Below, one piece after another: positions 31,775-35,811 of a stretch of DNA of 64,000 bases. The stretch is from the human T2T-CHM13v2.0 reference genome, Homo sapiens: the NCBI RefSeq assembly GCF_009914755.1, contig NC_060947.1. One strand, written 5' to 3'. Both the position numbers and the translations under genes were made by a program. The notes beneath the pieces were generated by a model. That model ran no database searches, was not told where the DNA came from, and was given only the letters and a program-made list of their open reading frames with translations. The first letter of the stretch is position 1. Each line of letters begins with the position of its first letter.

Positions 31775-31882
31775 CTGTCTAGTTGTGACTGACACACAGT
31801 TGGCATTTTCACTGGTCCTACCAATTGGAGTTGGGCAAAAGTTTTCCTTGGAGACTTTATGACCATAAAAAGTGGAAGTGAT
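31775..31882 (-). pseudogene. 3' portion of the L1-split EVA1C-like pseudo-exon (SUEL1 N-half)
   Basis: Reads TSTFYGHKVSKENFCPTPIGRTSENANCVSVTTRQ followed by the donor |gtaaga at 31774. Confidence 0.85.
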
Positions 31883-34800
31883 TTCTGCCTTCATTTCGTT
31901 ATGTACCTAGTAGTCATTCAGGAGCAGGTTGTTCAGTTTCCATGTAGTTGAGTGGTTTTGAGTGAGTTTCTTAATCCTGAATTCTAGTTTGATTGCACTG
32001 TGGTCTGAGAGACAGTTTGTTATAATTTCTGTTCTTTTATATTTGCTGAGGAGTGCTTTACTTCCAACTATGTGGTCAATTTTGGAATAAGTGTGATGTG
32101 GTGCTGAGAAGAAAGTATATTCTGTTGATTTGGGGTGGAGAGTTCTGTAGATGTCTATTAGGTCCGCTTGGTGCAGAGCTGAGTTCAATTCCTGGATATC
32201 CTTGTTAACTTTCTGCCTTGTTGATCTGTCTAATGTTGACAGTGGGGTGTTAAAGTCTCCCATTATTATTGTGTGGGAGTCTAAGTCTCTTTGTAGGTCT
32301 CTAAGGACTTGTTTTATGAATCTGGGTGCTCCTGTATTGGGTGCATATATATTTAGGATAGTTAGCTCTTCTTGTTGAATTGATCCCTTTACCATTATGT
32401 AATGGCCTTCTTTGTCTCTTTTGATCTTTGTTGATTTAAAGTCTGTTTTATCAGAGACTAGGATTGCAACCCCTGCCTTTCTTCATTTTTCTTTGAAACC
32501 AATGAGAACAAAGACACAACATACGAGAATCTCTGGGACACATTTAAAGCAGTGCATAGAAGGAAATTTATAGCACTAAATGCCCATAAGAGAAAGCAGG
32601 AAAGATCCAAAATTGACACCCTAACATCACAATTAAAAGAACCAGAGAAGCAAGAGCAAACATTCAAAAGCTAGCAAAAGGCAAGAAATAACTAAGATCA
32701 GAGCACAACTGAAGGAGATAGAGACACAAAAACGCTTCAAAAAATCAATGAATCCAGGAGCTGGTTTTTCAAAAAGATCAACAAAACTGAGAGACTGCTA
32801 GCAAAACTAATAAAGAAGAAAAGAGAGAAGAATCAAATAGACGCAATAAAAAACGATAAAGGGGATATCACCACCATTCCCACAGAAATACAAACTACCA
32901 TCAGAGAATACTATAAATACCTCTACACAAATAAACTAGAAAATCTAGAAGAAATGGATAAATTCCTGGATACACATACCCTCCCAAGACTAAACCAGGA
33001 AGAAGTTGAATCTCTGAATAGACCAATAACAGGCTCTGAAATTGAGGCAATAATTAATAGCTTACAACCAAAAAAAGTCCAGGACCAGACGGATTCACAG
33101 CCAAATTCTACCAGAGGTACAAGGAGGAGCTGGAACCATTCCTTCTGAAACTATTCCAATCAATAGAGAAAGAGGGAATCCTCCCTAACTCACTTTATGA
33201 AGCCAGCATCATACTGATACCAAAGCCTGGCAGAGACACAACAAAAAAAGAGAATTTTAGACCAATATCCCTGAAGAACATTGATGCAAAAATCCTCAAT
33301 AAAATACTGGCAAACCGAATCCAGCAGCACATCAAAAAGCTTATCCACCATGATCAAGTGGGCTTCATCCCTCGGATGCAAGGCTGGTTCAACACACGCA
33401 AATCAATAAACATAATCCAGCATATAAACAGAACCAAAGACAAAAACCACATGATTATCTCAATAGATGCAGAAAAGGTCTTTGACAAAATTCAACAGCC
33501 TTCATGCTAAAAACTCTCAATAAATTAGGTATTGATGGGATGGATCTCAAAATAATAAGAGCTATCTATGACAAACCCACAACCAATATCATACTGAATG
33601 GGCAAAAACTGGAAGCATTCCCTTTGAAAACTGGCACAAGACAGGGATGCCCTCTCTCACCACTCCTATTCAACATAGTGTTGGAAGTTCTGGCCAGGGC
33701 AATCAGGCAGGAGGAAGAAATAAAGGGTATTCAATTAGGAAAAGAGGAAGTCAAATTGTCCCTGTTTGCAGATGACATGATTGTATATTTAGAAAACCCC
33801 ATCATCACAGCCCAAAATCTCCTTAAGCTGATAAGCAACTTCTGCAAAGCCTCAGGATACAAAATCAATGTGCAAAAATCACAAGCATTCTTATACACCA
33901 ATAACAGACAGAGAGCCAAATCATGAGTGAACTCCCATTCATAATTGCTTCAAAGAGAATAAAATAGCTAGGAATCCAACTTACAAGGGATGTGAAGGAC
34001 CTCTTCAAGGAGAACTACAAACCACTGCTCAAGGAAATAAAAGAGGACACAAACAAATGGAAGAACATTCCATGCTCATGGATAGAAGAATCAATATCAT
34101 GAAAATGGCCATACTCCCCAAGGTAATTTATAGATTCAATGCCATCCCCATCAAGCTACCAATGACTTTCTTCACAGAATTGGAAAAAACTACTTTAAAG
34201 TTCATATGGAACCAAAAAAGAGCCCATATCGCGAAGTTAATCCTAAGCCAAAAGAATAAACCTGGAGGCATCACGCTACCTGACTTCAAACTATACTACA
34301 AGGCTACAGTAACCAAAACAGCATGGTACTGGTACCAAAACAGAGATATAGACCAAGGGAACAGAACACAGCCCTCAGAAATAATACCACACATCTATAA
34401 CCATCTGATCTTTGACAAACCTGACAAAAACAAGAAATGAGGAAAGGATTCCCTATTTAATAAATGGTGCTGGGAAAATTGGCTAGCCATATGGAGAAAG
34501 CTGAAACTGGATCCCTTCCTTACACCTTATACAAAAATTAATTCAAGATGGATTAAAGATTTAAATGTTAGACCTAAAACCATAAAAACCCTAGAAGAAA
34601 ACCTAGGCAATACCATTCAGGACATAGGCATGGCGAAGGACTTCTTGACTAAAACACCAAAAGCAATGGCAACAAAAGCCAAAATTGACAAATGGGATCT
34701 AATTAAACTAAAGAGCTTCTGCACAGCAAAAGAAACTACCATCAGAGTGAACAGGCAACCTACAGATGGGAGAAAATTTTTGCAATCTACTCATCTGACA

Positions 34801-35703
34801 AAGGGCTAATATCCAGAATCTACAAAGAACTCAAACAAATTTACAAGAAAAAAAACAAACAACCCCATCAAAAAGTGGGTGAAGGATATGAACAGACACT
34901 TCTCAAAAGAAGACATTTATGCAGCCAACAGACACATGAAAAAATGCTCATCATCACTGGTCATCAGAGAAATGCAAATCAAAATCACAATGAGATACCG
35001 TCTCACACCAGTTAGAATGGCGATCATTAAAAAGTCAGGAAACAACAGGTGCTGGAGAGGGTGTGGAGAAATAGGAACACTTTTACACTGTTGGTGGGAC
35101 TGTAAACTAGTTCAACCATTGTGGAAGTCAGTGTGGCGATTCCTCAGGGATCCAGAACTAGAAATACCATTTGACCCAGCCATCCCTTTACTGGGTATAT
35201 ACCCAAAGGATTATAAATCATGCTGCTATAAAGACATATGCACACGTATGTTCATTGCAGCACTATTCACAATAGCAAAGACTTGGAACCAACCCAAATG
35301 TCCAACAACGATAGACTGGATTAAGAAAATGTGCCACATATACACCATGGAATACTATGCAGCCATAAAAAAGGATGAGTTCATGTCCTTTGTAGGGACG
35401 TGGATGAAGCTGGAAACCATCATTCTGAGCAAACTATCACAAGGACAAAAAACCAAGTACCGTAGGTTCTCACTCATAGGTGGGAATTGAACAATGAGAA
35501 CACTTGGACACAGGAAGGTGAACATCACACACTGGGGCCTGTCACGTGGCGGGGGTAGGGGGGAGGGATAGCATTAGGAGATATACGTAATGTAAATGAA
35601 GAGTTAATGGGTGCAGCACACCAACATGGCACATGTATACATATGTAACAAACCTGCACGTTGTGCACATGTACCCTAGAACTTAAAGTATAATAATCAT
35701 AAA
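31883..35703 (+). mobile_element. 5'-truncated, 5'-inverted (twin-primed) L1PA; inverted part 31883-32480 (-), sense part ~32489-35703 (+)
   Basis: ORF 31907-32395 (-) is the EN domain; sense ORF2 pieces follow; TSD aaaaagtggaagtgat (31867-31882) / aaaaagcggaagggat (35704-35719). Confidence 0.95.
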
Positions 35704-35811
35704 AAAAAGCGGAAGGGATAATAATAGATGCCTTTTGTGGGTACATGATTCCCAGTTGCTCTCCATAGCATTCATGAGCTATATGTTTCTTCAGGACCTT
35801 CTTTAGTTAGG
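35704..35811 (-). pseudogene. 5' portion of the L1-split EVA1C-like pseudo-exon (SUEL1 N-half)
   Basis: ttcccccag|CCTAA...; reads *LKKVLKKHIAHECYGEQLGIMYPQKASIIIPSAF, compared with EVA1C YLTKLLQNHTTYACDGDYLNLQCPRHSTISVQSAFYG. Confidence 0.85.

What the first reader, a model, noticed from the sequence alone, without database searches (positions are those of the whole stretch)
31775..35811. Twin-primed L1 inserted in the middle of a former coding exon
The 16-bp TSD (aaaaag[t/c]ggaag[t/g]gat) is itself exon sequence, encoding I[P/T]S[A/T]F of the SAFYG motif. Removing 31867-35703 restores a frame-preserving 200-nt exon. The inverted arm ends at aaatgaaggcagaaat and the sense arm starts a few bases further along L1 (ttctttgaaacc), with a short non-matching linker; this is the classic twin-priming geometry. 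The insertion sets a latest date for gene death. The many stops and Cys losses suggest the gene died well before it.
Basis: partly seen in the sequence, partly recalled or inferred. Interest (0 to 1): 0.7.

Follow-up and report, generated by a model that had tools for sequence, protein, structure and literature searches.

The report
Lost EVA1C-like gene split by L1
A LINE-1 retrotransposon with an inverted front end sits inside one exon of a broken human X-chromosome gene that the supplied annotation does not list; its counterpart, a predicted cell-surface lectin receptor, is intact in whales, platypus, birds, reptiles and fish, the human gene likely died long before the insertion, and the insertion likely swapped short stretches of DNA with a neighbouring LINE-1.

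Summary
A 3.8-kb L1 with a 598-bp inverted arm, a 3.2-kb sense arm, a 7-nt deletion between the arms and a 16-bp target duplication (14/16) splits a 200-nt exon. That exon is one of five colinear, spliceable exons (17595-35811, minus strand) of an unannotated unitary pseudogene. It is the orthologue of vertebrate 'eva-1 homolog C-like', an old paralogue of EVA1C: 71% identical to the pilot-whale protein, 37% to human EVA1C, grouped with whales at 100/100. It carries 5 stops, 1 frameshift and 5 of 16 conserved cysteines lost; the membrane exon was not found. Decay is about 0.13 substitutions/site (0.09-0.19) against 0.025 for the L1, so the gene died well before the insertion. The only mammals among the top 120 protein hits were toothed whales and platypus. 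New: this L1 and a younger full-length L1 1.7 kb away share 6 alleles seen in no other sampled copy, which points to short-tract gene conversion. All mechanisms are known kinds. The lost gene and its patchy survival in mammals are the interesting part. Primate orthologous loci could not be examined.

The parts
35704..35811 (-). 5' half of the split exon (start of SUEL domain 1); AG acceptor at 35813-35812; stop at codon 2 (35807-35809); includes the right target-duplication copy
35704..35719 (+). right copy of the 16-bp target site duplication
32489..35703 (+). L1 sense arm (ORF2 part, 3' UTR, short A tail); older subfamily than the neighbour; L1PA5-like by recalled 3'-end features, not tested against a library
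34740..34940 (+). 201-bp stretch identical to 29173-29373 of the neighbouring L1; likely donor of a conversion tract
32481..32488 (.). 8-nt linker between the arms; identical to 31889-31896, possibly a templated slip
   Evidence: inference
31883..32480 (-). inverted L1 arm (endonuclease region of ORF2)
31867..31882 (+). left copy of the target site duplication; last 2 nt microhomologous to the L1
31775..31866 (-). 3' half of the split exon; GT donor at 31774
30369..30492 (-). next exon (second half of SUEL domain 1), 124 nt, 2 stops, GC donor; PF02140 over the curated cut-off
23987..30171 (+). full-length younger L1 in an intron, perfect 14-bp duplication at 23973-23986 and 30172-30185; partner in allele sharing
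23570..23721 (-). exon (first half of SUEL domain 2), 152 nt, one 1-nt frameshift
21431..21574 (-). exon (second half of SUEL domain 2), 144 nt, 2 stops
17595..17666 (-). stalk exon, 72 nt, open frame, AG and GT ends

Best explanation
This is an L1 with an inverted 5' arm, likely made by twin priming, lying inside an exon of a broken, five-exon human orthologue of the vertebrate EVA1C-like gene; the gene likely died long before the L1 arrived, and the L1 likely exchanged short tracts with its neighbour by gene conversion. Shown: the L1 anatomy, the exons and their lesions, the orthology on a tree, and the excess of shared rare alleles. Inferred order: (1) the gene, predicted from its intact orthologues to encode a signal peptide, two SUEL lectin domains and a FAM176 membrane tail, stopped being selected early in the lineage leading from the placental radiation to humans; (2) an L1PA5-like RNA was primed at a TTTT/A nick in the dead exon, the second nick 16 nt away primed internally on a 2-nt microhomology, and the two cDNAs were joined with loss of 7 nt; (3) a younger full-length L1 entered a downstream intron; (4) the two L1s, 5.6 kb apart in register, converted each other in tracts of tens to about 280 bp, at least one from the twin-primed copy into the neighbour.
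For: Anatomy. Gene: PF02140 at 30376-30498 over cut-off; five exons in order with AG/GT ends except one GC donor; 163 of 231 residues identical to pilot whale against 75 of 201 to human EVA1C; sister to the two whales at 100/100 with platypus next at 96/93 (21 of 132 fetched proteins used). The two best genome-wide hits of the whale protein are exons of this locus, ahead of EVA1C. Timing: 28 of 118 near-invariant residues changed, d = 0.133 (0.09-0.19); P about 1e-5 at d = 0.05; the insert's rare-allele load is 95 of 3815 sites. The codon that is Leu in 126 of 132 proteins reads Pro in one duplication copy and Thr in the other, both with C as second base, so the change likely predates the duplication. 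Conversion: 6 alleles found only in these two of 29 copies, 0.54 expected, first of 376 pairs; two two-allele patterns each match exactly twice in the genome, both here; one shared allele occurs in 35 of 11,461 copies; the neighbour has old-type alleles at 9 of 9 polymorphic sites in 29198-29364, where the seven young-type copies that cover all nine sites have them at 0 to 3; its best match for that tract is the insert (40 of 1891 candidates scored).
Against: No primate or other mammalian DNA could be aligned, so the empty site, the synteny and the dates rest on one genome and on protein data. The decay estimate uses a simple substitution model without CpG effects; 5 stops fit it only loosely (P about 0.12-0.2 at d = 0.125-0.15), and one frameshift in about 690 nt is few for so long a decay. 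Exon 1 and the membrane exon were not found. The 201-bp identical run is not significant after correction for 376 pairs (naive P 0.0014 each). The shared alleles lie between many unshared differences, so several separate short tracts are needed. The one shared allele in the inverted arm occurs in 2 of 18 other copies. Subfamily names are recalled.
Confidence: 0.85

Rival explanations
1. The L1 insertion itself killed a still working gene, and all other lesions came afterwards.
For: The insertion splits a coding exon, which would be a null allele.
Against: At the L1's own divergence (0.025) about 6 of 118 conserved residues should have changed; 28 did (P about 1e-11). The Leu change is present in both duplication copies.
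Confidence: 0.03
2. The relic is a partial duplicate or processed copy of EVA1C, like the autosomal EVA1C fragments.
For: Same exon layout as EVA1C; membrane exon not found; EVA1C-like fragments exist on several contigs.
Against: It has introns, is 37% identical to EVA1C but 71% to the whale paralogue, and sits in the species-tree position of that paralogue. Only one EVA1C sequence was in the tree, on a long branch.
Confidence: 0.02
3. The inverted structure arose from two independent L1 insertions or a later inversion, not from twin priming.
For: An 8-nt linker at the centre; only 2 nt of microhomology.
Against: One duplication encloses both arms; the arms are adjacent, non-overlapping L1 segments 7 nt apart; both carry old-type alleles.
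Confidence: 0.04
4. The alleles shared by the two L1s come from chance, a rare source lineage or assembly polishing, not from gene conversion.
For: Tracts are short and scattered; a 4-bp shared deletion is common elsewhere (10 of 26 copies).
Against: The copies differ at 61 subfamily-polymorphic sites, so neither is the parent of the other; no third copy carries either allele pair; Poisson P 2e-5, about 0.008 after correction for 376 pairs.
Confidence: 0.1
5. The locus still yields a functional truncated protein or a functional non-coding RNA.
For: Nine of ten splice sites are canonical and the tenth is a GC donor.
Against: A stop in the second codon of the first recognisable exon, 5 of 16 cysteines lost, no gene row in the supplied annotation. 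Expression was not testable.
Confidence: 0.04

Closest known systems
'protein eva-1 homolog C-like' of whales, platypus, sauropsids, amphibians and fish (fish name si:ch73-335m24.2; database names)
   Same: Residues 38-272 of the whale protein map in order onto five exons, 71% identical; tree position of an orthologue.
   Different: The human copy has 5 stops, 1 frameshift, an L1 in an exon, and no detectable first or membrane exon.
Human EVA1C (C21orf63, FAM176C), two lectin domains that bind heparin (PMC8277382, passages), orthologue of the worm Slit receptor EVA-1 (PMC3767613, passages)
   Same: Two SUEL domains, each split over two exons at matching positions.
   Different: 37% identity, another chromosome, a separate lineage that is outside the fish-to-mammal clade of the X gene in the midpoint-rooted tree.
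Twin-primed L1 insertions (described in PMC2837659, passages; original model recalled)
   Same: Duplications enclosing two inverted fragments of one L1 with an internal deletion; endonuclease-type target.
   Different: Nothing mechanistic; the 8-nt linker may be a templated slip.
Human unitary pseudogenes (PMC2864566, passages; PMC10195156, passages and one supplement)
   Same: A disabled single-copy orthologue of a gene working in other species.
   Different: Those screens start from mouse or rodent genes; no rodent orthologue appeared, so they would likely miss this locus.
Non-allelic gene conversion between neighbouring repeats (PMC6598467, passages: raised between Alu copies within 10 kb and on sex chromosomes)
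   Same: Close neighbours on X share otherwise rare alleles in patches.
   Different: Here between two L1s of different subfamilies, about 6% apart.

Membership tests
Twin-primed L1 | One target site duplication around the whole insert | tested here: met
   16 bp, 14/16
Twin-primed L1 | Inverted 5' fragment and sense 3' fragment from adjacent parts of one L1, with a small deletion | tested here: met
   7 nt missing between the arms
Twin-primed L1 | TTTT/A target and A tail | tested here: met
   sequence at 31863-31871 and 35690-35708; the tail is short
Twin-primed L1 | Microhomology at the internal priming site | tested here: inconclusive
   2 nt only, which chance gives often
Twin-primed L1 | Empty site in an outgroup genome | not testable with these tools
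   no primate genomes held; protein orthologues are contiguous
Unitary pseudogene | Disabling lesions | tested here: met
   5 stops, 1 frameshift, L1
Unitary pseudogene | Intact orthologue in other species | tested here: met
   gene models in whales, platypus and others; models, not tested proteins
Unitary pseudogene | No second, intact copy in the genome | tested here: met
   one DNA match; no closer protein match elsewhere
Unitary pseudogene | Conserved synteny with the intact orthologue | not testable with these tools
   protein hits carry no genomic context
EVA1C / EVA1C-like receptors | Two SUEL lectin domains | tested here: met
   domain 1 exon 35.6 bits, over cut-off 31.4; domain 2 exon 13.9 bits, under it, but 71% identical to whale domain 2
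EVA1C / EVA1C-like receptors | FAM176 membrane and cytoplasmic part | tested here: not met
   present in whale and platypus; not found in the window or on X near it
EVA1C / EVA1C-like receptors | Binding of Slit or heparin | not testable with these tools
   known for EVA1C or worm EVA-1 only
Non-allelic gene conversion | Paralogues share derived alleles beyond chance | tested here: met
Non-allelic gene conversion | Local switch of subfamily signature with both elements and flanks kept | tested here: met
   29198-29364; both duplications intact
Non-allelic gene conversion | Unconverted state in an outgroup orthologue | not testable with these tools
   no ape or monkey loci

The most novel reading that the evidence does not exclude
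A second vertebrate EVA-1-type lectin receptor, kept from fish to platypus, was lost repeatedly and early in most marsupial and placental lineages, humans included, but is still under purifying selection in toothed whales. Its human fossil lies unannotated in the spacer between the int22h repeats behind haemophilia A inversions, and it would be a rare case of a gene that cetaceans kept while land mammals dropped it.
Probability: 0.35. Interest if true: 0.7.

Novelty: new member of a known kind. Interest (0 to 1): 0.45.

Why it matters
Twin priming, unitary pseudogenes and conversion between repeats are all known. What is added is a specific, apparently uncatalogued human gene loss of a whole vertebrate orthogroup, of a kind that mouse-anchored screens cannot see. 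If the protein data reflect the genomes, the gene survives among placentals mainly in whales, the reverse of the usual pattern of cetacean gene loss, and this is directly testable in public alignments. The L1 pair is also a clean caution: neighbouring L1s can carry each other's alleles, which biases subfamily calls and age estimates made from one genome.

Tried and rejected
Pfam and PDB sequence searches with each half exon alone found nothing. Exon 1, the 30-residue optional exon and the membrane exon were sought with sub-profiles, a genome search, ungapped scans and a frameshift-tolerant alignment: best score 42 against a background of 27-37, positive control 89; the hit near 2300 was rejected as not colinear. 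A parent-daughter link between the two L1s was rejected (61 subfamily-polymorphic differences). The shared 4-bp deletion was dropped as evidence (10 of 26 other copies). Conversion from the neighbour into the insert near 28660-28710 was considered and left unproven, because an intermediate subfamily explains it as well. Two other neighbouring L1 pairs that share a rare allele were inconclusive: they are older than my reference copies, so 'rare' alleles mix with subfamily alleles. In the L1 counts, 2 of 28 fetched copies were dropped as duplicates of others from then on, and the partial copy at 4290. The 50%-cluster library gave no names and, among its best 150 rows, no full-length protein between 65% and 95% identity to the whale protein. 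Literature: searches listed no paper on this locus or paralogue (listings only; one search had 0 papers for five name variants). PMC2864566 main text has no EVA1, C21orf63 or Xq28 (its supplement was not searched); the one supplement of PMC10195156 has no EVA1 or TMLHE. Subscription papers, GENCODE and TOGA tables were not visible, so prior cataloguing is not excluded.

Full report
Observation. The 16-bp duplication at 31867-31882 and 35704-35719 is real (14 of 16) and lies exactly at the ends of the repeat. Only one other match that good occurs among 63,905 other window positions. Measured on the full-length L1 at 23987-30171, the insert has an inverted arm (26909 to 26307, 96.5%) and a sense arm (26917 to the 3' end, 94.0%). 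Seven L1 bases are missing between the arms, the left duplication ends in 2 bases of microhomology, and 8 bases of linker lie at the centre. The target reads TTTT/A on the bottom strand. This matches the twin-priming structure as described in PMC2837659 (passages). The empty site is a 200-nt exon with AG and GT ends. It is phase 1 to 0, so not frame-neutral, and it has a stop at codon 2.

What the gene is. The half exons alone matched nothing. A genome search with the SUEL lectin model PF02140 hit 30376-30498 above the cut-off. That exon retrieved two tegu lizard proteins at 74% identity, and these led to a vertebrate-wide set named 'eva-1 homolog C-like'. The pilot-whale member maps in order to five minus-strand exons: 35811-31775 (split by the L1), 30492-30369, 23721-23570, 21574-21431 and 17666-17595. 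Nine of ten splice sites are canonical and one donor is GC. The relic is identical to the whale protein at 163 of 231 residues and to human EVA1C at 75 of 201. In a tree of 23 rows (21 of 132 fetched proteins, the relic and human EVA1C) it is sister to the two whales at 100/100, with platypus next at 96/93. The whale protein's two best hits in the human genome are exons of this locus. Intact orthologues carry two SUEL domains and a FAM176 membrane tail. The human first exon and membrane exon were not found. By the supplied annotation the locus lies in the spacer between int22h-2 and int22h-3 and has no gene row.

Who still has it. With the whale protein as query, the best 120 of 327 hits held four mammalian clusters: pilot whale (8 members), pygmy sperm whale (2) and two of platypus. 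The rest were sauropsids, amphibians and fish, down to about 45% identity. A full-length land-placental orthologue would be expected to rank near the top. Limits: the members of the whale cluster are unnamed and could include close relatives at 90% or more; the other 207 hits were not shown; gene models may be missing. One unnamed 140-residue model looks like a degraded relative of the whale gene. The whale branch is short (about 0.09 changes per site against 0.42 for the relic), which suggests continued selection.

When it died. The relic has 5 stops, one 1-nt frameshift and 5 of 16 conserved cysteines lost. Of 118 positions shared by whale, platypus and at least 90% of 20 amniote sequences, 28 have changed. 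A neutral simulation gives d = 0.133 (0.09-0.19). The insert carries rare alleles at 95 of 3815 sites (2.5%) and the neighbour at 63 (1.7%). The gene has therefore decayed about five times as far as the L1. A conserved Leu (126 of 132 proteins) is already changed in both copies of the duplication. I call the insert L1PA5-like from recalled 3'-end features; L1PA5 is given as 20.4 million years old in PMC5237266 (passages). On recalled primate rates, death would fall near or before the base of primates; this date is inferred. Against it: one frameshift is few, and the model ignores CpG decay.

The two L1s share alleles. Insert and neighbour differ at 61 subfamily-polymorphic sites, so they come from different sources. 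Yet over the sense arm they share 6 substitutions seen in none of the other 27 copies, against 0.54 expected; this pair ranks first of 376 (P 2e-5). They also share a 1-bp deletion found in 2 of 25 others. Two patterns, each joining two such alleles, match exactly twice in the genome, both times here. One allele is in 35 of 11,461 copies. Over 29198-29364 the young neighbour has old-type alleles at 9 of 9 polymorphic sites, while the seven young-type copies that cover all nine sites have them at 0 to 3. The two elements are identical over 201 bp there, and the insert is the best match of 40 scored. That run alone does not survive correction for 376 pairs. Short-tract non-allelic gene conversion is the likeliest cause (about 0.85). 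PMC6598467 (passages) reports raised conversion between Alu copies within 10 kb and on sex chromosomes.

Comparison and novelty. EVA1C has two heparin-binding lectin domains (PMC8277382, passages) and is the orthologue of the worm Slit receptor EVA-1 (PMC3767613, passages); a like role for the X paralogue is inference only. Known catalogues of human gene loss start from mouse or rodent genes (PMC2864566, passages; PMC10195156, passages and one supplement) and do not name the locus in what I could see. Seven searches listed no paper on it (listings only). PMC7725122 and PMC13704881 (passages) discuss the region without this gene. Subscription papers and annotation databases were not visible.

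Verdict. Observation confirmed, interpretation supported. Every mechanism is of a known kind. The value lies in an apparently uncatalogued loss of an old vertebrate receptor gene, with a possible whale-only survival among placentals. Novelty: new member of a known kind. Interest 0.45.

Noticed in passing
window 23987-30171: Full-length L1 with a perfect 14-bp duplication, antisense in an intron of the dead gene; both ORFs are broken and 3' UTR has a 10-nt deletion.
   Followed up: partly
L064/L065 (G000:C6, 7.8 kb apart) and L066/L067 (G000:C23, 15 kb apart, opposite strands): Among the 35 copies with one rare L1 allele, two further pairs are close neighbours. The X pair is 8.9% apart but identical over 66 bp around the allele. 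Neighbour conversion between L1s may be general.
   Followed up: partly
window 32481-32488: The central linker repeats 8 bases from the other end of the inverted arm (31889-31896); perhaps a template slip during joining.
   Followed up: partly
window 30368-30367: GC instead of GT at one donor site; unknown whether ancestral or a later change.
   Followed up: no
L049 (G000:C3:177844504-177844608): Weak, stop-free SUEL-like half domain (E 1.7) that is not among the loci I could assign; may be chance or another relic.
   Followed up: no
window 4290-5161, 8517-9572, 39933-40398, 47220-50269: Further L1 fragments of several ages on both strands; the spacer is rich in L1.
   Followed up: no
tree: The branch leading to whales plus human is long (0.39) compared with platypus (0.15): the gene sped up before the placental radiation, which may mark relaxed selection ahead of the losses.
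   Followed up: no
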